A DNA stretch of 8,058 nucleotides from a virus (lineage: Duplodnaviria; Heunggongvirae; Uroviricota; Caudoviricetes). The stretch spans positions 1 to 8,058 of IMG/VR virus record IMGVR_UViG_2740892103_000005; one strand, 5' to 3'. Positions 1 through 7,901 of the stretch are shown piece by piece (the stretch's first letter is position 1; the number at the start of each line of letters is the position of its first letter). A program made the translations under genes and the position numbers. Below the pieces are notes generated by a model. The model was given only the letters and a program-made list of their open reading frames with translations. It made no database searches and was not told the origin of the DNA.

Positions 1-860
1 AAGAGGAACAGCGGGTCATCAGAGCAGGTACGGTTACCCCAGAAGCGGAAACCGTCGCGGCGAATCAGCGTAGTGACGCCTGACTCATTAAGCAGGTCAG
101 CATCGGTGCCGGACTCCTGCAAATCCCAGAATACAGAGGTGCTGATGCCGGTAACACCGTTCACCCCAACGTTGGACAGTGTTTTATGCCAGCCCTGCTC
201 CTGGTCGATTTTAGCGCGCAGACCCAGCGCACGGGCGGTGGCATACGCGGTGGCGGTGGTACTGGTGACCGTATCCCATGCGAGGAAATCCGGCCAGATG
301 ACCATCAACTCACGCTGGCTGAAATTCTGGCGGTAGGCTTTCACCTCGGAAATGGTCTTACAGCCCCATGCGCTGATATATCCGAAAGCACGCAGCTTCT
401 GACAGACGGATGCCAGTGCAACAGCCACCTCTTTGGTATCCAGTCCCGGCACACCGAGAATACGCGGTTTAACACCGGTTACCGACTCCGCCGCCAGCAG
501 GGCTTTCAGTCCGGTGTACTGACCGTTTTCGTCGGTGGTGCCGATGATATTGGAAACGGTCTGCGCGAGTTTCGTTTCCTCGTCGTCGCCGGTGCCGTCT
601 TCCACACGCACGACAACGGTGACCGGTTTTGACTGGTCGGCGATGGCCTGCAACGATGCCGCCAGCGTGCCTTTTTTACCGGCCTTTGCAATTGCGCTCT
701 GCACATTGGTAATCAGCACCGGTTTATTGAGGGGGAAGGTTTCCGCATCCGCATCGCTGGCCGTGCAGACCATGCCGACAATGGCCGTGGATACGGTGGA
801 AATGACGCGGGTGCCGTCGTTAATCTCCAGCACCTGCACGCCGTGATGATAGTCACTCAT
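1..860 (-). CDS. FI: Tail sheath protein, P2 gpFI-like; N-terminal ~286 codons, C-terminus lies beyond the window start
   Basis: Manual minus-strand translation from ATG at 860-858 reads MSDYHHGVQVLEINDGTRVISTVSTAIVGMVCTASDADAETFPLNKPVLITNVQSAIAKAGKKG... with no stop to position 1. Recognised from memory as P2 FI tail sheath N-terminus. GGAG Shine-Dalgarno lies 8 nt upstream of the ATG. Missing from the ORF track because it has no in-window stop. Confidence 0.9.
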   Translation of the reverse strand, partial: MSDYHHGVQVLEINDGTRVISTVSTAIVGMVCTASDADAETFPLNKPVLITNVQSAIAKAGKKGTLAASLQAIADQSKPVTVVVRVEDGTGDDEETKLAQTVSNIIGTTDENGQYTGLKALLAAESVTGVKPRILGVPGLDTKEVAVALASVCQKLRAFGYISAWGCKTISEVKAYRQNFSQRELMVIWPDFLAWDTVTSTTATAYATARALGLRAKIDQEQGWHKTLSNVGVNGVTGISTSVFWDLQESGTDADLLNESGVTTLIRRDGFRFWGNRTCSDDPLFL

Positions 861-932
861 CCGTTTAACTCCGTGGTTAATGGGTGCAACTATTTTCTGT
901 TGGGCAGTGCATAAGACGCTATTTGACCTGAC

Positions 933-950
933 TGGTCAGTGGATGAAACA
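933..950 (-). promoter_or_regulatory. Putative P2-type late promoter activator element upstream of FI (PF-like)
   Basis: Minus strand reads TGTTTCATCCACTGACCA, i.e. TGT-N12-CCA, one mismatch from the TGT-N12-ACA partial dyad of Ogr-dependent P2 late promoters. It is centred about 80 nt upstream of the FI ATG and sits immediately after a terminator. Position and motif only; the -10 region is weak, as expected for an activator-dependent promoter. Confidence 0.3.
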
Positions 951-954
951 ACAG

Positions 955-984
955 ATTAAAGAAAAGGCGGGCAACTCGCCCGCC
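955..984 (-). terminator. Rho-independent terminator (minus strand) downstream of the cargo gene and upstream of FI
   Basis: GC-rich 7-bp stem GGCGGGC (966-972) / GCCCGCC (978-984) with 5-nt loop. On the minus strand the stem is followed directly by TTTTCTTTAAT; on the plus strand there is no T-tract, so it is orientation-specific. Confidence 0.55.
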
Positions 985-1053
985 CGTCCTGATTTGTACT
1001 CACTCATTTTTCAACTGACAATTTACATAGCCCAAAAGCTATCAAATCAGACA

Positions 1054-1077
1054 GTCTGCTTTGAGCCAAAAGCAGAC
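1054..1077. repeat. Perfect 9-bp inverted repeat hairpin (GTCTGCTTT-N6-AAAGCAGAC)
   Basis: Read directly: 1054-1062 gtctgcttt, loop gagcca, 1069-1077 aaagcagac. Lies between the cargo gene stop and the terminator at 955-984. Could be a second terminator, an RNA processing site or a protein-binding palindrome. Confidence 0.5.
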
Positions 1078-1107
1078 GTTATGGTATGTCAATCAAACAA
1101 GAGGAAG

Positions 1108-1119
1108 TGACCTGCTCCC
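1108..1119 (+). repeat. Direct repeat copy 1 (TGACCTGCTCCC), 3' flank of cargo gene
   Basis: Exact 12-mer also present at 2537-2548. Both copies are preceded by CAATCA at a slightly different spacing. A 12-mer match alone is near chance expectation in 8 kb; the flanking position is what makes it notable. Confidence 0.35.
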
Positions 1120-1146
1120 CGTTGTGGGTGTGAACCTCATGGGCAT

Positions 1147-2373
1147 TCAACCTTTCAATGCTTCAATCGTATTATTAAGTCGACGCAACAGGTCGTCGTA
1201 CGTCAATATGTCTATCATGTTGGCGTACTTACGTTTGATTATCTCAAAATCAAGCAACTGACCGTCGGTCATGTTACCGTTCGCTATCTGATCGCGCCCG
1301 ACAATGATGATGGCTTTTGGGTTAGATATACGAATACACATTCCCGCTGGCAGAGAATTCTTGTAGGCATTCGTAAGCTCTTTTTCACCCTTAACACCCC
1401 ATTTAGATAAATGAAAAATATACTTTTCAGCCTGCATAATACCGCCGCTAAGTTCTGATGTAGGAATATAGTTATCGCGATAGGGCGTCTTGCGAAGGAT
1501 CTTATCATCAAACGGCTTTTTGACTTCGATGATATCAAGGTTGCCGTTTGCATCCACCAGTGCAATGTCTATAAACCGATTTGTTTTAGCCGAAGGATTA
1601 GAGTAATAGTCGAAAATTTTAACCTTCTCGAGGACCTTGATATATTTTGGAAAAAGTAATGTGATGAAGGGTATCATCAGGCTCTGCCAGTCATCTTCAG
1701 ACAAGTTAGTTTTGTTATTCAACGCATCCTGGATAATGTCTCTTATGAGTGTATATTTCTCAATTTCGAGCTTATTTAAAACTTCTAAATCCAGTTTGTC
1801 GGTTTTTCTGATCACTGTTTTTCTGTTTAGGTAATGTTCATACCGTTCGCGAGCATCTTTCATACCATCAAGATAACCTGCGAGAATAGCGTGAACCCTT
1901 GCATTAGCATAGCGATCCAGTTCCCCTGTGTTGGGGAATTTACTTTGCAACTCCTGGAATACGCTTTTTGGTATAGCTTCCGGCTTATCTCCTCCGATGA
2001 TGATGGGATTAGTGTGTTCGAGTAGTTTTGAAAGCCGACCAAAAATGGAGACGTTGCGTTCTGACGCAAATACTTTCCTTTCAAGCTTGATGGACTTATG
2101 TATAAGGACATCTCGATTAATGCTTAGAATCCGTCCCGGAACTGTTATGTATTCATTATTAAGCGTGCCAAAATTAAAGGAATATTCGTAATCATTAAAA
2201 TCCTGAACGGTTGACGGTGGGTTTCTCAAATCCTGGAGTTGAAAGTTAAAAATTCGTGAAATGCATACTGTTTGAAATTTATTTAAACTCTCCCAAACCC
2301 AAATTATTTGTTCTCCGCTGTCACCGTCGTAAGTCATAACAACGTCATTTGATACAAAGCTGAACTGTAACAT
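1147..2373 (-). CDS. Cargo protein in the G-FI hotspot: putative PD-(D/E)xK nuclease, Shedu/DUF4263-like C-terminal domain with an unassigned N-terminal domain; candidate anti-phage defence protein
   Basis: 408-aa ORF with AGAGGAAAT Shine-Dalgarno 4-8 nt upstream of ATG at 2373. Strongly AT-rich versus flanking phage genes (by eye, not computed). Residues ~265-285 read RFIDIALVDANGNLDIIEVKKP, a D...(D/E)xK core. Downstream AIIIVGRD and a C-terminal ILTYDDLLRRL resemble what I recall of Shedu (DUF4263) conserved blocks. Family assignment is from memory and motifs, not a search. Confidence 0.5.
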   Translation of the reverse strand: MLQFSFVSNDVVMTYDGDSGEQIIWVWESLNKFQTVCISRIFNFQLQDLRNPPSTVQDFNDYEYSFNFGTLNNEYITVPGRILSINRDVLIHKSIKLERKVFASERNVSIFGRLSKLLEHTNPIIIGGDKPEAIPKSVFQELQSKFPNTGELDRYANARVHAILAGYLDGMKDARERYEHYLNRKTVIRKTDKLDLEVLNKLEIEKYTLIRDIIQDALNNKTNLSEDDWQSLMIPFITLLFPKYIKVLEKVKIFDYYSNPSAKTNRFIDIALVDANGNLDIIEVKKPFDDKILRKTPYRDNYIPTSELSGGIMQAEKYIFHLSKWGVKGEKELTNAYKNSLPAGMCIRISNPKAIIIVGRDQIANGNMTDGQLLDFEIIKRKYANMIDILTYDDLLRRLNNTIEALKG

Positions 2374-2480
2374 ATTTCCTCTGATTGATAAAACGTCCCA
2401 TATTTTCCTGATAATTGCATTAGAGATCCGGCATGAACTGATGCCCGCCTATAATGACTAACTCTGCAATCACTGTCTCG

Positions 2481-2509
2481 ATATTATGTTCATCCCCCAT
2501 TTTATCCAA
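2481..2509 (-). promoter_or_regulatory. Putative sigma70 promoter for the cargo gene
   Basis: Minus strand reads TTGGAT-17 bp-TAATAT (plus-strand atccaa 2504-2509, atatta 2481-2486), about 110 bp upstream of the cargo ATG and on the gene side of the IS2 insertion. Sequence pattern only. Confidence 0.3.
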
Positions 2510-2536
2510 GTTATAAAATAGCAATCACGTAGATAA

Positions 2537-2548
2537 TGACCTGCTCCC
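2537..2548 (+). repeat. Direct repeat copy 2 (TGACCTGCTCCC), 5' flank of cargo gene
   Basis: Exact match to 1108-1119. Confidence 0.35.
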
Positions 2549-2588
2549 AGTAAACTAACATAGCACGATGTAAGCAAGTTCCGCTTTT

Positions 2589-2593
2589 GGTAC
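2589..2593. repeat. IS2 target-site duplication, copy 1 (GGTAC)
   Basis: The 5 bp immediately outside the IS2 IRR end are identical to the 5 bp immediately outside the IRL end (3925-3929). IS2 is known to make 5-bp duplications. Confidence 0.9.
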
Positions 2594-2634
2594 TGGATTT
2601 GCCCCTATATTTCCAGACATCTGTTATCACTTAA
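2594..2634. repeat. IS2 right terminal inverted repeat (IRR)
   Basis: Imperfect inverted repeat partner of 3884-3924; shared ...CCAGACA...TATCACTTAA core. Confidence 0.85.
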
Positions 2635-3510
2635 CCCATTACAGGCCCGCTGCCGCAGATATTCCCGTGGCGAGCGATAACCCAGCGCACTATGCGGATG
2701 CCATTCGTTATAATGCTCGAACGCCTCTGCAAGGTTCTTTGCTGCCGTTAACCCGTCTGGTTTGGGCATGATACTTATGTAGTCACGCTTTATCGTTTTC
2801 ACGAAGCTCTCTGCTATTCCGTTACTCTCCGGACTCCGCACCGCCGTGTTCTTCGGTTCAAGTCCCAACATCCGGGCGAACTGGCGTGTTTCATTAGCCC
2901 GGTAGCATGAACCATTATCCGTCAGCCACTCCACTGGAGACGACGGAAGATCGTTGCCGAAGCGGCGTTCCACCGCTCCCAGCATGACGTCCTGTACTGT
3001 TTCACTGTTGAAGCCGCCGGTAGTCACCGCCCAGTGCAGTGCCTCACGATCACAGCAGTCCAGCGCGAACGTGACACGCAGTCTCTCTCCGTTATCACAG
3101 CAGAACTCGAACCCGTCAGAGCACCATCGCTGATTGCTTTCTTTCACGGCCACTCTGCCTGTATGTGCCCGTTTCGATGGCGGTACAGCAGGTTTTCGCT
3201 CAAGCAACAGCGCATTCTGGCGCATGATCCGGTAAACACGTTTGGCATTGATCGCAGGCATACCATCAAGTTCTGCCTGTCTGCGAAGCAGCGTCCATAC
3301 CCGACGATAACCATACGTGGGCAGCTCTCCGATAACATGGTGTATACGGAGAAGCACATCCGTATCATCAGTGTGACGACTGCGGCGGCCATCCATCCAG
3401 TCATCGGTTCGTCTGAGAATGACGTGCAACTGCGCACGCGACACCCGGAGACAACGGCTGACTAAGCTTACTCCCCATCCCCGGGCAATAAGGGCGCGTG
3501 CGCTATCCAC
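2605..3510 (-). CDS. insD: IS2 transposase OrfB (InsD), DDE integrase-like catalytic part; expressed as InsCD fusion by -1 frameshift
   Basis: 301-aa ORF (track) beginning (V/M)[29 protein letters not shown]..., recognised as IS2 InsD. Overlaps the insC 3' end in the -1 frame. Confidence 0.92.
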
Positions 3511-3833
3511 TTTTTTGCCCGTCCATATTCAACGGCTTCTTTGAGGAGTTCATTTTCCATCGTTTTCTTGCCGAGCAGGCGCTGGAGTTCTTTAATCTGC
3601 TTCATGGCGGCAGCAAGTTCAGAGGCAGGAACAACCTGTTCTCCGGCGGCGACAGCAGTAAGACTTCCTTCCTGGTATTGCTTACGCCAGAGAAATAACT
3701 GGCTGGCTGCTACACCATGTTGCCGGGCAACGAGGGAGACCGTCATCCCCGGTTCAAAGCTCTGCTGAACAATTGTGATCTTTTCCTGTGTGGTACGCCG
3801 TCTGCGTTTCTCCGGCCCTAAGACATCAATCAT
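3468..3833 (-). CDS. insC: IS2 OrfA (InsC), helix-turn-helix transposase N-terminal protein / regulator
   Basis: Track ORF 3468-3878 trimmed to the internal ATG at 3833, giving [19 protein letters not shown]..., the InsC N-terminus as I recall it. The upstream extension would lie inside the terminal inverted repeat. Confidence 0.9.
3510..3517 (-). other. Programmed -1 ribosomal frameshift slippery site (A AAA AAG) at the insC/insD overlap
   Basis: Minus strand reads GGGCAAAAAAGTGG within the 3468-3510 overlap of the two ORFs, the arrangement typical of IS3-family elements. Confidence 0.7.
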
Positions 3834-3883
3834 CTGTTCTCCAATGACTAGTCTAAAAACTAGTATTAAGACTATCACTTATT

Positions 3884-3924
3884 TAAGTGATACTGGTTGT
3901 CTGGAGATTCAGGGGGCCAGTCTA
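3884..3924. repeat. IS2 left terminal inverted repeat (IRL)
   Basis: See IRR feature; the reverse complement of 3884-3924 aligns with 2594-2634. Confidence 0.85.
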
Positions 3925-3929
3925 GGTAC
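3925..3929. repeat. IS2 target-site duplication, copy 2 (GGTAC)
   Basis: Identical to 2589-2593. Confidence 0.9.
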
Positions 3930-3999
3930 AGAGCAGACTGTCAGATTAAGTTTTACTCTGTGCCATAGATACGTTAGCTCACTCCAGATATCATACAAC

Positions 4000-4527
4000 T
4001 TATTGCGGTATTTCCGGCCATTCAGGATTTGCAGGATCCACACGGCTGACCAGAACGCTGTAGCGTTCCCATGACTCCAGTCGTGCGCGCTCCTCATCCG
4101 TCGCCATATTCAGCCTGACGGCGCGTTCCAGCGGCTGGATAACGCTTTCCGCTTCGGAAAGTAACGCGGCCTTTTGTGATTCGGCCTGTTGTTGCTGTTC
4201 GTCTGCCGTATAAATCCGCTTAATCACGGCACCATCCTTAAACATCCATTTACCTGAGTCATCAGCACGTCGGTTGGCGGTAATATCAGGAACCTCGACA
4301 ACGCTAAAACCTTCAGGGTTAAGCGTTGAAGCATCTCTGGTGATGCCGACAATTATATTATTCTCGTCGTAAACAATCTTTATCGTGTCCTCCTGAAAAT
4401 TATTTACTTCCTCATACCAGTTTTTTCCCTCTTCGGACCATAACCAGATAACATCAAAATTTTTTGTCAGTTGATATTGGGCAACAGTTTTTGGATTACC
4501 CGCAATAATATTTTTTAAATGCTGCAT
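4000..4527 (-). CDS. G: Tail fibre assembly protein (P2 gpG-like chaperone)
   Basis: 175-aa [43 protein letters not shown]...[30 protein letters not shown], recognised as P2 G / Tfa family. Starts 3 nt after the tail fibre stop. Confidence 0.9.
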
Positions 4528-4530
4528 AAA

Positions 4531-6459
4531 TTACACCTGTGCGACGTTATACCATGTTCCATTGATGTATTTTTGTATTGGTCTGAATACTGCGGGGTCA
4601 TCACCATCGACTTCACCGACAATACCAAGCCCGGTAATTACGTGCCCTGCTTTCTCATACATCACACCTTTTTTCATAGTCTGAACAACACGTGTGCCCA
4701 GGCGAATATCTCGTACATAGCGAGAATCCGATTCATCTTTGGTATATGCACCAACATCTCCCGCAGAGGGTTTGCGGGTTGTGGTGTAAAACTCTGACCA
4801 GTCAGCCTCAAATCCATAACCATCACGCGCTGAACGATAATAAATACCGCCGTTCTTATAATTCACACGGAACTGTACGGCAGGGCAACTCCCCTCGCTC
4901 ATATTGAAATGGAGGATTAATGTCGATGCGCCACCAATATTTGCTTGATAGACCCCGCTATTCCAGTTCCAGCCAACAGCTTTATCATTTCCGACAGTGC
5001 TTCCTGTTTTCCCTAAAGCAAATGCAGGCTGCTGGTTTTTCGTGTTGTAGTCTCGTCGCCAGCCAGGAGCATAAGCATCACCATGATTAATATAAGTGAA
5101 TTGAGCGTTAGTGGTGCCGCCTCCGGTGGAAGTGCTTGGTGTTGTTACACGGATGGTCATGGCACCTTTATTACCCATAACCTCAATAACGCAACCTGCA
5201 AGATGAATAGTTCCACAGCCAGTATCGGTAATAATTTTATTATTGCCGTATGACCATGAACATTTGCACATCCAGTACGGATGATTAAATGCACCACGGG
5301 AATCCAGCCATTCAATAAACTGAGCGGTTGTCCAGTTTCCGGCTTCAGTGCTCAAAGCGCCGCTATAAGCACGACAGGCACCGATATTTTTCGTGAAGGT
5401 ATCCTTTCCCGGAATATCCGCACCGTTCTGATCTTTCTGAAGACGTTTTTCAGCATTGTCATAGGCAGACTTCACTGCTTTTGGTGTTGCGGCCAGCGTT
5501 TCAGAATCACTGTTGGTGGCGCTACTGAGCTGGACAAGGCCTTTTCGCGCCGTGGTGGCATCCTGCGCAGTGTATTTCCCGTTAGCAAGGTCATACGCTG
5601 TCTTAACCGCCTTTGGCGTTGCTGCAAGCGTTTCAGAATCGCTGTTGGTGGCGCTACTGAGCTGGACAAGACCTTTTCGCGCTGTGGTGGCGTCCTGTGC
5701 AGTGTATTTCCCGTTAGCAAGGTCATATGCTGCCTTTACCGCTTTTGGTGTAGCGGCGAGCGTTTCAGACGTGCTGTTGGTGGCGCTACTGAGCTGGACA
5801 AGGCCTTTTCGCGCTGTGGTGGCATCCTGCGCAGTGTATTTCCCGTTAGCAAGATCATACGCGGCCTTTACCGCTTTCGGCGTTGCGGCCAGTGTTTCAG
5901 ACGTGCTGTTGATCGCACTGCTTAACTGAGTAAAACCTTTTGCGGTCAGCGAGGCGTCCGGGTGACGTCGTGACTGTTCATGCTCTGCAATTTTGTCATC
6001 AACGTAATCCTGCGTCGCCATCACCGTTGTGGTGTCAATGGTCAGCGCCACTGAGGCCACACTGCTGACGATGATGACCATGCGACAGGTCTGCGAACGC
6101 CCTGAGCCTTCGGCAAGAGCTGGCTTATAACTTTCGGCCATGTTCGCCACGGCAATTAATGTTCCCGCATCATCGTACAGGCCAAGCTCACGCATCCAGA
6201 AACCGCCCACCTCCGGCGGAATAACCAGCTCTGCGATAATATAATTACTGTTTCGTTTGTCCTGGCTGATTTTGTTCAGCGCATGTCGCCAGACTTCATG
6301 GATAAGCCCGGTCTGTCCGGCATCCGGGACAGGCAATTTACCACCGCCATCCCCGACGGCCATCGTGGTAATGTTGACCTTCCGCCCTCCCGGCGCGGTT
6401 GCCGCTGCCAGCTTTGCTGCACCGGCAGTGGTGATAACGGTTCTGAATTTTGTGCTCAT
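4531..6459 (-). CDS. H: Tail fibre protein (P2 gpH-like) with internal tandem repeats and a distal receptor-binding domain
   Basis: 642-aa ORF with N-terminus MSTKFRTVITTAGAAKLAAATAPGGRKVNITTMAVGDGGGKLPVPDAGQTGLIHEVWRHALNK..., recognised as P2 H. GAGGA Shine-Dalgarno upstream of ATG at 6459. Confidence 0.9.
   Translation of the reverse strand: MSTKFRTVITTAGAAKLAAATAPGGRKVNITTMAVGDGGGKLPVPDAGQTGLIHEVWRHALNKISQDKRNSNYIIAELVIPPEVGGFWMRELGLYDDAGTLIAVANMAESYKPALAEGSGRSQTCRMVIIVSSVASVALTIDTTTVMATQDYVDDKIAEHEQSRRHPDASLTAKGFTQLSSAINSTSETLAATPKAVKAAYDLANGKYTAQDATTARKGLVQLSSATNSTSETLAATPKAVKAAYDLANGKYTAQDATTARKGLVQLSSATNSDSETLAATPKAVKTAYDLANGKYTAQDATTARKGLVQLSSATNSDSETLAATPKAVKSAYDNAEKRLQKDQNGADIPGKDTFTKNIGACRAYSGALSTEAGNWTTAQFIEWLDSRGAFNHPYWMCKCSWSYGNNKIITDTGCGTIHLAGCVIEVMGNKGAMTIRVTTPSTSTGGGTTNAQFTYINHGDAYAPGWRRDYNTKNQQPAFALGKTGSTVGNDKAVGWNWNSGVYQANIGGASTLILHFNMSEGSCPAVQFRVNYKNGGIYYRSARDGYGFEADWSEFYTTTRKPSAGDVGAYTKDESDSRYVRDIRLGTRVVQTMKKGVMYEKAGHVITGLGIVGEVDGDDPAVFRPIQKYINGTWYNVAQV
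5470..5935. repeat. Tandem ~120-bp (40-aa) in-frame repeats inside tail fibre gene H, ~3.7 copies
   Basis: Protein repeat unit LSSATNS(T/D)SETLAATPKAVK(A/T/S)AYDLANGKYTAQDATTARKGLVQ occurs 3 times plus a partial fourth. DNA copies are about 90% identical with period 120 bp. The antisense ORFs in the track (5281-5925, 5513-5929) show the same periodicity. Confidence 0.85.
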
Positions 6460-6469
6460 TATTCCTCAC

Positions 6470-7000
6470 TTATCCGGGGTAAACCGTAATTACATCGCCG
6501 TCGTAAGCCACACCACCGGCGAACAGGTAGCCGGGAATGTCCCGGGTAATGTTCAGGCCAATAAGGTGACGGCTTGCAGGTTTGGCATCAGCAATCAGCC
6601 GTTCCATTTCCTGATACATTGCCTCTGTGATGCCACTTTCCAGTACACCAATATCAAGCCGGAAGGTGCCCGGCGGGTCACTGGTTTCCCACCACTCCGT
6701 CACGTTGATGAGATAGCCCAGCGGCTCCACCACACGCCGGATTGCACCTATCGTGCCCTTATGACAGTGGATGAAATAGGCATCGCGGATAACGGCGCGT
6801 TTTGTCGCTTCCGGCCACTTTTCATCCCACCTGTCGACCGAAAACGCCCACGCCAGCCACGGCAGCAGATTTGCCGGACAGGTGTCCGGGTTCCACAGTT
6901 CACGAATACTGACCGGCGTTTTTTCAATTTCCGCACAGGCTTTTGCGGCGGCAACTTCAAGCGGTGATGAGCCGGTCGGCAGCAGTCGCGAATCACTCAT
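6470..7000 (-). CDS. I: Baseplate assembly protein (P2 gpI-like)
   Basis: 176-aa ORF MSDSRLLPTGSSPLEVAAAKACAEIEKTPVSIRELWNPDTCPANLLPWLAWAFSVDRWDEKW..., recognised as P2 I. Start overlaps the J stop by 8 nt. Confidence 0.9.
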   Translation of the reverse strand: MSDSRLLPTGSSPLEVAAAKACAEIEKTPVSIRELWNPDTCPANLLPWLAWAFSVDRWDEKWPEATKRAVIRDAYFIHCHKGTIGAIRRVVEPLGYLINVTEWWETSDPPGTFRLDIGVLESGITEAMYQEMERLIADAKPASRHLIGLNITRDIPGYLFAGGVAYDGDVITVYPG

Positions 7001-7901
7001 CCGAGCCCCCGGTCACGACGCGGTATTCGGTGCAGAAAGACGCCTGCGTACTGTTGAGCACAATGTCGGCCAGTGGTGCAGCCAGCTCGACACGCTGCAC
7101 GCCTTCCACATGCAAAGCGGCATAAATAGCAGACAGACGGATGTCGCGCCCCAGCCGGTGCTGTGCCGTGATGTACGCTTCCAGTTTTTTCACGGCAGCA
7201 GCGCGGATGGGTTCGCTTTCGGGACCAGGGTAAAGGTAAAGCGTGGCGTTTATCTGGTATTCAACGATGGCGGCAGACTGCACGGTCACGCGGTCGGCCA
7301 CCGGCCTGACGTCCTCACCATTCAGGGCGTTGCGCACCACCGCCAGCAGGTCTTCGGATGCAACACCGTTATTTTCGCGAGACAGCACGGAGATAGTGAC
7401 GCAGGCCGGAGACGGACTGGTGACAGAGATATCCGCGACACGCCCGTCGGCACTGCGACCATGATACTGATAGGCTCCCACCGACCCGGCGACGCTTAAG
7501 CCCTCAAACGCCTGCTGAATACGCAGACGATAATCGGTGTCAGACTCCATCACTGCCGGTGTCGGCGGGATGGTCGAATCATCTGCCGGGGTGATAGTCA
7601 GGCGCGTGGTGTTGTAATTGGCACCAATCACATCAAGGTCATTACCGGCGGCACAGGCCAGCATCACCGCCCGCGCAGCCTCATTCACACGCTGACGCCA
7701 GATAAGCTCACGATAAGCATTTTCCTCCAGCAGTTTGACGAGAGGCTCAGATTCCAGCGTCAGGGTACGGGCGACCGCCTCCTGCTGGTCTTCCGGGTAA
7801 AGGGAAATCAGTGTCGCCTTGCGTTCAGCGAGAATGGTTTCAAAGTCCAGCTCCTCGACCACATCCGGTGCGGGTAGCTGGTTCAGGTCGATAATCGGCA
7901 T
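6993..7901 (-). CDS. J: Baseplate assembly protein (P2 gpJ-like)
   Basis: 302-aa ORF MPIIDLNQLPAPDVVEELDFETILAERKATLISLYPEDQQEAVARTLTLESEPLVKLLEENAYRELIWRQRVNEAARAV..., recognised as P2 J. Confidence 0.9.
   Translation of the reverse strand: MPIIDLNQLPAPDVVEELDFETILAERKATLISLYPEDQQEAVARTLTLESEPLVKLLEENAYRELIWRQRVNEAARAVMLACAAGNDLDVIGANYNTTRLTITPADDSTIPPTPAVMESDTDYRLRIQQAFEGLSVAGSVGAYQYHGRSADGRVADISVTSPSPACVTISVLSRENNGVASEDLLAVVRNALNGEDVRPVADRVTVQSAAIVEYQINATLYLYPGPESEPIRAAAVKKLEAYITAQHRLGRDIRLSAIYAALHVEGVQRVELAAPLADIVLNSTQASFCTEYRVVTGGSDE

What the first reader, a model, noticed from the sequence alone, without database searches (positions are those of the whole stretch)
1147..2373. Single-gene AT-rich cargo at the G-FI (Z/fun) hotspot of a P2-like prophage: candidate Shedu-like nuclease defence protein
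Seen in sequence: a 408-aa minus-strand ORF sits exactly between tail-fibre assembly gene G and sheath gene FI. It has its own RBS and putative promoter, is followed by hairpin and terminator structures, and is much more AT-rich than the flanking phage genes, which argues for horizontal acquisition. Established knowledge: the G-FI interval of P2-like phages (P2 Z/fun locus) is a variable hotspot that commonly carries anti-phage defence cargo. Inference: the C-terminal third contains a PD-(D/E)xK-like core (FIDIALVD...IIEVKKP, roughly D269/D274-E283-K285) plus IVGRD and a terminal TYDDL block, which I interpret as a Shedu/DUF4263-type nuclease domain. No partner gene is present, so it would act as a single-gene system. 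I cannot tell without a search whether it is a known Shedu variant, the P2 Fun(Z) protein itself, or an undescribed family.
Basis: partly seen in the sequence, partly recalled or inferred. Interest (0 to 1): 0.8.

Follow-up and report, generated by a model that had tools for sequence, protein, structure and literature searches.

The report
Known E. coli Shedu nuclease (EcSduA/PD-T4-8)

Summary
The 408-aa ORF at 1147..2373 (-) is real and AT-rich (39.5% GC against 57.8% for FI). It is cargo of a P2-like prophage between genes G and FI. It is a Shedu nuclease: PADLOC SduA E=1e-219 over the full length, and Pfam SduA_C (formerly DUF4263) E=3e-33. It matches the "Shedu effector protein" of PDB 8PS4/8PS5/8PS6 at 407 of 408 residues (D119E only). 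That protein is EcSduA of Loeff et al. (bioRxiv 2023): a tetramer whose N-terminal clamp senses free dsDNA ends and whose PD-(D/E)xK domain nicks about 14 nt from the 5' end. By strain, gene length and DNA identity it is also PD-T4-8 from ECOR31 (Vassallo 2022), which defends from its native promoter, and ORF1 of the P2-EC31 Z region (GenBank AJ512677). Loeff et al. already note Shedu in the P2 Z/fun locus, and PGAP annotates it in 53 of 5,426 complete E. coli genomes. It is not Fun(Z). Verdict: interpretation supported, already known, low interest.

The parts
1147..2373 (-). sduA: Shedu immune nuclease, 408 aa plus stop. An allele of EcSduA / PD-T4-8.
   Evidence: ORF. PADLOC SduA E=1.2e-219, model positions 1-406 of 407. 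407 of 408 residues identical to PDB 8PS4/8PS5. The exact sequence is in NCBI as 'Shedu immune nuclease family protein'.
1939..2373 (-). Codons 1-145: N-terminal sensor domain (DNA-end clamp; holds W25, R106, K116; the one substitution, D119E, lies here).
   Evidence: Domain limits come from Loeff et al.. Identity to the 8PS6 N-terminal domain crystal construct. Residues checked.
1810..1938 (-). Codons 146-188: alpha-helical linker (holds R154 and Y181 of DNA-binding patch 2).
   Evidence: Limits from Loeff et al.; residues conserved.
1150..1791 (-). Codons 195-408: DUF4263/SduA_C PD-(D/E)xK nuclease domain (E226, Q230, D269, E283, K285, Q314).
   Evidence: Pfam PF14082 over residues 224-396, 115.6 bits against a cutoff of 27. 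Active-site residues conserved.
2378..2381 (-). Shine-Dalgarno-like GAGG, 5-8 nt upstream of the ATG.
   Evidence: Read directly from the sequence.
2481..2509 (-). Predicted sigma-70 promoter TTGGAT-17-TAATAT. A prediction only.
   Evidence: The -35 and -10 features of AJ512677.1, mapped to the window through the 99.5% alignment. Below the 9-of-12 threshold of the scan. A native-promoter clone of PD-T4-8 is functional.
1081..2593 (-). Cargo module that replaces the fun(Z) segment of P2 (about 1.5 kb, 40% GC).
   Evidence: Homology to P2 NC_001895 ends at window 3925 and resumes at 1080. Composition.
1101..1120 (-). Terminator-like hairpin just after the sduA stop codon.
1054..1077 (-). Hairpin GTCTGCTTTTGGCTCAAAGCAGAC at the FI-side cargo border. 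It corresponds to the 'right inverted repeat' of AJ512677.1.
965..985 (-). Strong G+C-rich stem with a T-run (9 pairs, 7 of them G-C) in the conserved P2 backbone upstream of FI. The likely terminator of the sduA transcript.
   Evidence: Lies within the stretch that is 90% identical to P2.
2594..3924 (-). IS2 (IS3 family), 1,331 bp, with transposase ORFs at 3468..3878 and 2605..3510. Same orientation as sduA. Not part of the defence system.
   Evidence: Pfam HTH_Tnp_1, rve and rve_3. Terminal inverted repeats. Ends and length. PGAP names matching copies 'IS3-like element IS2 family transposase'.
2589..2593 (.). IS2 target-site duplication, copy 1 (GGTAC on the + strand).
   Evidence: The empty site has a single copy in strain 20A24 and in P2-EC31.
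3925..3929 (.). IS2 target-site duplication, copy 2.
4000..4527 (-). P2 gene G (tail fibre assembly protein), the upstream phage neighbour.
   Evidence: Pfam Caudo_TAP E=2.9e-36. 92% nucleotide identity to P2 G.
1..860 (-). P2 gene FI (tail sheath), 5' part, which runs off the window. The downstream phage neighbour.
   Evidence: Translation begins MSDYHHGVQV. 99.7% identical to annotated FI sheath proteins of P2-like phages.

Best explanation
This is an intact allele of the characterised E. coli type I Shedu nuclease (EcSduA, also called PD-T4-8). It is carried as single-gene cargo in the Z/fun hotspot, between the V and F late operons, of a P2-like prophage.

Mechanism shown in the literature for the protein that is 407 of 408 residues identical:
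- SduA forms a homotetramer.
- Pairs of N-terminal domains form a narrow clamp that accepts only a free dsDNA end, which stacks on W25.
- The duplex then runs along a basic channel over the DUF4263 PD-(D/E)xK site (E226, Q230, D269, E283, K285, Q314, with Mg2+).
- The 5' strand is nicked about 13-14 nt from the end.
- Circular host and plasmid DNA is spared. Linear phage DNA and the intermediates of recombination-dependent replication in T-even phages are hit.
- The result is more than 30,000-fold protection against T2 and T6 without killing the cell.
- T6 escapes by losing the helicase UvsW.

Inferred for this window: the allele works the same way, because every validated residue is conserved and the only change is the conservative D119E. 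It is expressed from its own promoter during lysogeny, which protects the lysogen and so the prophage. The IS2 220 bp upstream of the start codon is a later, lineage-specific insertion that leaves the gene and its predicted promoter intact.
For: -: 913 bits, 407 of 408 residues identical to PDB 8PS4/8PS5 (full length) and 8PS6 (N-terminal domain).
- PADLOC SduA PDLC04067, E=1.2e-219, end to end.
- Pfam SduA_C, 115.6 bits (cutoff 27).
- all 13 residues tested by mutation are conserved.
- mechanism, phenotypes and escape mutants from Loeff et al. (10.1101/2023.08.10.552762). The paper also states that Shedu occurs in the P2 Z/fun locus.
- the EcSduA accession ELC07825.1 is in the same 90% cluster, and the exact window protein is already in NCBI.
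- PD-T4-8 is a 1,227-bp DUF4263 gene from ECOR31, active from its native promoter on a low-copy plasmid.
- the Z region of prophage P2-EC31 (from ECOR31) is 99.5% identical in DNA.
- other strains have the same G-sduA-FI arrangement without IS2, annotated as Shedu.
- the module occupies the slot that fun(Z) holds in P2.
Against: - Nothing was tested on this exact allele. E119 lies 3 residues from K116 of DNA-binding patch 1, so an effect is unlikely but untested.
- The IS2 insertion removes whatever lay more than 220 bp upstream. The functional PD-T4-8 clone carried 257 or 324 bp of upstream DNA, so a distal regulatory element could be lost.
- The promoter is only predicted (8 of 12 matches).
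- The literature disagrees on outcome. Gu et al. (PMC10441436) cite PD-T4-8 as proposed to act by abortive infection, whereas Loeff et al. saw non-abortive protection from arabinose-driven expression.
- In the DNA-bound structure the scissile phosphate is about 12 A from the catalytic centre, so the activation step is unresolved.
- I could not compare RCP52534.1 (PD-T4-8) residue by residue. Identity is inferred from strain, gene length and the P2-EC31 record.
Confidence: 0.93

Rival explanations
1. Same protein, but at native expression level it defends by abortive infection. Nuclease activation in infected cells would also damage host DNA or arrest growth, so the population is protected rather than the infected cell.
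For: [quoted passage not shown]. Vassallo et al. tested native-promoter, low-copy constructs at MOI 0.05 and 5. The isolated nuclease domain is toxic.
Against: Cells with EcSduA infected with T6 at MOI 5 grew like uninfected cells. Circular plasmid transformation was unaffected. I could not read the per-system abortive-infection flag in Vassallo's figure, so the claim reaches me second-hand.
Confidence: 0.15
2. The gene is intact, but the IS2 insertion silences or misregulates it in this strain, so it is a decaying or inert passenger here.
For: IS2 lies 220 bp upstream of the ATG, at the cargo border. This is less upstream DNA than in the functional PD-T4-8 clone (257 or 324 bp). None of 5,426 complete genomes carries this junction.
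Against: The ORF is full length with no damaging change. The predicted -35 and -10 boxes and the RBS are untouched, 80 bp or more from the IS end. The same insertion persists in at least one other assembly, with the same IS2-sduA junction in a third. The spacer has no significant structure or terminator that IS2 would disrupt.
Confidence: 0.1
3. It works like B. cereus Shedu. An auto-inhibited tetramer would be activated by a conformational change and assembly into an octamer that makes staggered double-strand cuts, rather than by end-directed nicking.
For: Gu et al. showed this for the B. cereus protein, and both proteins share the DUF4263 core and N-terminal autoinhibition. The 12 A gap in the EcSduA-DNA structure implies an unseen activation step.
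Against: The N-terminal domains are unrelated. Gu et al. place PD-T4-8 in a different class, Type 1B. The phmmer search of the PDB at E<=1 returned only the three EcSduA entries. [quoted passage not shown]
Confidence: 0.05

Closest known systems
EcSduA, the Shedu effector of E. coli KTE10 (ELC07825.1; PDB 8PS4, 8PS5, 8PS6; Loeff, Walter, Rosalen and Jinek, bioRxiv 10.1101/2023.08.10.552762)
   Same: 407 of 408 residues, same length, same domains, all validated residues conserved. The P2 Z/fun location is also noted in that paper.
   Different: One conservative substitution (D119E). This copy has an IS2 inserted 220 bp upstream.
PD-T4-8 (Vassallo et al. 2022, PMC9519451; ECOR31, RCP52534.1)
   Same: A 1,227-bp single DUF4263 gene from the strain that hosts prophage P2-EC31, whose Z region is 99.5% identical in DNA to the window. 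It was selected with T4 and is active from its native promoter.
   Different: The protein sequences were not compared directly. PD-T4-8 was named as a new system before it was folded into Shedu (Type 1B in Gu et al.).
ORF1 of the P2-EC31 proviral Z region (GenBank AJ512677.1, 'putative lysogenic conversion protein')
   Same: Same locus, 99.5% nucleotide identity, same flanks. Promoter and flanking inverted repeats are annotated there.
   Different: The deposited CDS is shorter (321..1409). The alignment has one gap and tblastn splits into two pieces, consistent with a frameshift in that record. It has no IS2.
Bacillus cereus B4264 SduA (the founding Shedu; Doron et al. 2018 from my own knowledge; structure in Gu et al., PMC10441436)
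   Same: C-terminal DUF4263 PD-(D/E)xK nuclease, homotetramer, N-terminal autoinhibition, single-gene defence.
   Different: Unrelated N-terminal domain and a different proposed activation (octamer, staggered double-strand cuts). The best PADLOC hits to other SduA subfamilies reach only E of about 1e-12, over the C-terminal half.
P2 Fun(Z) (NP_046777.1)
   Same: Occupies the same G-FI slot in P2 and is a non-essential lysogenic-conversion and phage-exclusion gene that blocks T5.
   Different: 528 aa, on the strand opposite to G and FI, with no detectable sequence similarity (best blastp E=3.4).

Membership tests
Shedu (SduA) anti-phage defence system | A DUF4263 / SduA_C domain (Pfam PF14082) above the gathering threshold | tested here: met
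   115.6 bits against a cutoff of 27, residues 224-396 covering model positions 2-159 of 159. 16 PADLOC SduA models hit, the best at E=1.2e-219 over the full length.
Shedu (SduA) anti-phage defence system | An intact PD-(D/E)xK catalytic set (E226, Q230, D269, E283, K285, Q314 in EcSduA numbering) | tested here: met
   All six residues are present at the same positions. The residue list comes from Loeff et al..
Shedu (SduA) anti-phage defence system | Single-gene system with no obligate partner gene | tested here: met
   In the IS-free alleles the gene lies alone between G and FI. The only other ORFs in the interval here are the IS2 transposase genes. EcSduA and PD-T4-8 defend alone.
Shedu (SduA) anti-phage defence system | Confers phage resistance that depends on nuclease activity | not testable with these tools
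   Shown for the 99.75%-identical EcSduA (T2 and T6, more than 30,000-fold; lost in active-site mutants) and for PD-T4-8. Not tested for this allele.
Type I Shedu, EcSduA subfamily (Type 1B of Gu et al.): DNA-end-sensing clamp | The EcSduA-type N-terminal domain with W25 and the DNA-binding patches R106/K116, R154/Y181 and Y256/K263 | tested here: met
   Residues 1-188 match the 8PS6 construct with a single change, D119E. All seven residues are conserved.
Type I Shedu, EcSduA subfamily (Type 1B of Gu et al.): DNA-end-sensing clamp | Homotetramer that nicks linear dsDNA about 13-14 nt from the 5' end and spares circular DNA | not testable with these tools
   Published for EcSduA. Inferred here from 99.75% identity.
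P2 Z/fun hotspot cargo | A variable segment between the end of the V operon (gene G) and the F operon promoter and gene FI of a P2-like phage | tested here: met
   J, I, H and G lie upstream and FI downstream. P2 homology breaks at 3925 and resumes at 1080, and P2 holds fun(Z) there. GC drops from about 0.58 to 0.40. Only 53 of the 901 genomes that match the flanks carry this cargo.
P2 Fun(Z) protein | Sequence homology to NP_046777.1 | tested here: not met
   Best blastp E=3.4 over 15 residues. A tblastn search of 50,697 phage records, reference P2 (NC_001895) among them, found only P2-EC31.

The most novel reading that the evidence does not exclude
The only feature here that is not already in the literature is the IS2 element. 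It sits precisely at the G-side border of the cargo, inside the left flanking inverted repeat, and in the same orientation as sduA. The most novel reading still open is that this insertion rewires Shedu expression, for example by uncoupling it from read-through of the late V operon or by supplying an outward or hybrid promoter. It could also mobilise the cargo. One metagenome contig has the same IS2-sduA junction but unrelated DNA on the far side of IS2, which would fit an IS2-mediated transfer of the defence gene out of the prophage. The D119E change near DNA-binding patch 1 could also shift specificity.
Probability: 0.1. Interest if true: 0.25.

Novelty: already known. Interest (0 to 1): 0.08.

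Why it matters
As a discovery it matters little. The protein, its structure, its mechanism, its phage targets, its escape route and its residence in the P2 Z/fun hotspot are all published, and standard pipelines (PGAP, PADLOC, Pfam) already name it.

The value is methodological. A reader working from raw sequence alone correctly identified a hotspot cargo gene, its fold family and three of its catalytic residues. That supports using the same reasoning on hotspots where the cargo is truly unknown.

For annotating this strain, the useful facts are that the lysogen probably resists T-even phages through an intact Shedu gene, and that an IS2 has landed at the edge of the cargo.

Tried and rejected
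- Fun(Z) identity: rejected. No similarity (best blastp E=3.4), and P2 was not hit in the tblastn search of phage records.
- Undescribed family: rejected.
- Conserved core P2 gene: rejected. The full cargo is in 53 of 5,426 genomes, while 901 match the flanks. It is absent from reference P2 and found in only 1 of 50,697 phage records.
- Known RNA element in the intergenic regions: none at Rfam gathering thresholds.
- Structured leader or terminator in the intact G-sduA spacer that IS2 might have disrupted: the fold is no better than shuffled sequence (z=0.11), and no terminator-like site lies on that strand.
- NCBIfam: no model hit, even though PGAP names the protein. This adds nothing either way.
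- Flanking inverted repeats as evidence of a mobile cassette: only a 29-nt, 86% match with E=0.043 inside a 1.9-kb search, too weak to build on.
- Source genome among complete RefSeq E. coli: the IS2-sduA junction was not found. It was found in the draft assembly GCA_021657315.1.
- Structure prediction and fold search: not run, because an experimental structure at 99.75% identity exists.

Full report
**Observation**

The window holds the tail module of a P2-like prophage, all on the minus strand:
- J at 6993..7901, I at 6470..7000, H at 4531..6459 and G at 4000..4527.
- The start of sheath gene FI at 860, running off the window (translation MSDYHHGVQV...). It is 99.7% identical to annotated FI proteins of P2-like phages.

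Its GC content is 39.5%, against 57.8% for FI and 56-59% for I and J. Three terminator-like hairpins follow it on the same strand, at 1120..1101, 1077..1054 and 985..965.

The gene is not directly next to G. Window 2594..3924 is a complete 1,331-bp IS2:
- It carries IS3-family transposase ORFs with HTH_Tnp_1, rve and rve_3 domains.
- It has terminal inverted repeats.
- It is flanked by a 5-bp direct duplication, GGTAC, at 2589..2593 and 3925..3929.

Two IS-free copies of the locus have a single GTACC at that point: strain 20A24 and the GenBank record for prophage P2-EC31. The sequence is otherwise continuous, so this is a simple transposition into a pre-existing G-sduA spacer.

The insertion lies 220 bp upstream of the start codon. 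It is 80 bp upstream of the -35 box that the P2-EC31 depositors annotated, which maps to window 2509..2481 as TTGGAT-17-TAATAT. That promoter is only a prediction. It matches 8 of 12 consensus positions, and the scan found nothing better on that strand.

**What the gene is**

- PADLOC's SduA model PDLC04067 matches end to end at E=1.2e-219, and fifteen further SduA subfamily models match more weakly over the C-terminal half.
- Pfam SduA_C (PF14082, the former DUF4263) scores 115.6 bits against a cutoff of 27, over residues 224-396.
- A sequence search of the PDB returns the "Shedu effector protein" of entries 8PS4 and 8PS5 (full length) and 8PS6 (N-terminal domain). Identity is 407 of 408 residues, and the single change is D119 to E.
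- These are the structures of EcSduA from E. coli KTE10, accession ELC07825.1, described by Loeff, Walter, Rosalen and Jinek (bioRxiv 10.1101/2023.08.10.552762).
- An exact-sequence lookup shows the window protein is already in NCBI under several accessions as "Shedu immune nuclease family protein". ELC07825.1 is in the same 90% cluster.

**Earlier sightings of the same gene**

- Vassallo et al. 2022 (PMC9519451) isolated PD-T4-8 by functional selection with T4. It is a single DUF4263 gene of 1,227 bp from strain ECOR31. They showed it defends from its native promoter on a low-copy plasmid.
- ECOR31 is the host of prophage P2-EC31. That prophage's "Z-region, ORF1" was deposited two decades ago as a "putative lysogenic conversion protein" (AJ512677.1), and it is 99.5% identical in DNA to the window.
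- Gu et al. (PMC10441436) classify PD-T4-8 as a Type 1B Shedu.
- Loeff et al. state explicitly that Shedu systems occur in the Z/fun locus of P2 prophages.
- PGAP annotates the gene as Shedu in the 53 of 5,426 complete E. coli genomes that carry the full cargo. All of those copies are chromosomal.

**How it works**

Shown in the literature for the 99.75%-identical protein:
1. EcSduA is a homotetramer.
2. Its N-terminal domains (residues 1-145) pair into 17 A clamps that admit only a frayed end of a duplex, stacked on W25.
3. The DNA then follows a basic channel (patches R106/K116, R154/Y181 and Y256/K263) across the DUF4263 PD-(D/E)xK site. That site is formed by E226, Q230, D269, E283, K285 and Q314 with Mg2+.
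4. The 5' strand is nicked about 13-14 nt from the end.
5. Circular plasmids are not affected. Linear fragments transform about 10-fold less well.
6. T2 and T6 plate more than 30,000-fold less efficiently, without death of infected cells.
7. T6 escapers carry mutations in the helicase gene uvsW, which ties the defence to the linear intermediates of recombination-dependent replication.
8. The nuclease domain alone is toxic, so the N-terminal domain also restrains it.

Inferred for this window: all thirteen of those residues are present at the same positions. D274 is not among them. I therefore infer that this allele works the same way.

**Context**

Comparison with reference P2 (NC_001895) shows homology ending at window 3925, which is the IS2 target site, and resuming at 1080. 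The cargo is therefore about 1.5 kb, 1081..2593. It replaces the 2.1-kb P2 segment that holds the V-operon terminator and fun(Z). Fun(Z) is 528 aa, lies on the opposite strand in P2, and has no detectable similarity to SduA (best blastp E=3.4). The strongest downstream terminator, at 985..965, lies in the conserved phage backbone just upstream of the FI promoter region.

**The IS2 insertion**

- None of the 5,426 complete RefSeq genomes has the IS2-sduA junction.
- The draft assembly GCA_021657315.1 is collinear with the window through the IS, at 99.94% over 5,373 bp.
- A metagenome contig (ERZ1304437) shares the IS2-sduA junction but has different DNA beyond the far end of IS2.

The insertion is therefore real and lineage-specific. 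I found no structured element or terminator in the intact spacer that it would have destroyed. The functional PD-T4-8 clone carried slightly more upstream DNA than remains here: 257 or 324 bp against 220 bp. A regulatory effect therefore cannot be excluded.

**Open points**

- Abortive against direct immunity is reported differently by different groups.
- The catalytic activation step is unresolved, because the scissile phosphate sits about 12 A from the active site in the DNA complex.
- This exact E119 allele, with its IS2-truncated upstream region, has not been tested.
- I could not compare RCP52534.1 directly with the window protein.

**Verdict**

The feature is already known in sequence, structure, mechanism and genomic location, so interest is low.

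Noticed in passing
window 2594..3924 (TSD at 2589..2593 and 3925..3929): A complete 1,331-bp IS2 with a 5-bp target-site duplication is inserted between G and sduA, exactly where homology to P2 ends (the cargo border). It has the same orientation as sduA. It is absent from 5,426 complete E. coli genomes but present in the draft assembly GCA_021657315.1 (L007).
   Followed up: yes
L008 (ERZ1304437 NODE_5108), locus 1..1067 against window 3925 onward: This metagenome contig shares the IS2-sduA-FI arrangement (99.7%), but left of IS2 it carries a TetR-like gene instead of phage gene G. That is either a chimeric assembly across the IS or an IS2-mediated rearrangement.
   Followed up: partly
window 3925..3947 plus 2583..2588, against 1045..1073: A 29-nt imperfect (86%) inverted repeat brackets the cargo, and the IS2 target lies inside the left arm. 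It corresponds to the 'left/right inverted repeat' features of AJ512677.1. Statistical support is weak (E=0.043 in a 1.9-kb self-search).
   Followed up: partly
window 5458..5901 (inside H, 4531..6459, minus strand): 3.4 tandem copies of a 132-bp unit (88% matches) encode the four Phage_fiber_2 repeats of the tail fibre protein.
   Followed up: partly
window 4200..4650: GC dips to 0.38-0.41 across the 3' end of H and the 5' end of G, unlike the rest of the tail genes. This suggests a mosaic, exchanged receptor-binding and chaperone module.
   Followed up: no
window 2017..2019 (codon 119 of sduA): The only difference from the crystallised and cryo-EM EcSduA is D119E, three residues from K116 of DNA-binding patch 1.
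   Followed up: partly
L002 (AJ512677.1) CDS 321..1409: The old P2-EC31 record annotates a truncated 362-aa ORF. The alignment to the window has one gap and tblastn splits into two pieces, which fits a frameshift or sequencing error in that record.
   Followed up: partly
literature (PMC10441436 against 10.1101/2023.08.10.552762): PD-T4-8 is cited as acting by abortive infection, while the near-identical EcSduA is reported as non-abortive. The difference may come from expression level or from the phage used (T4 against T6).
   Followed up: partly
L001 13773..14558 (+), strain 20A24 prophage, outside the window: A 261-aa hypothetical protein lies on the opposite strand between baseplate gene V and the virion morphogenesis gene. 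From memory this is the position of orf30 in P2, and it could be another variable slot.
   Followed up: no
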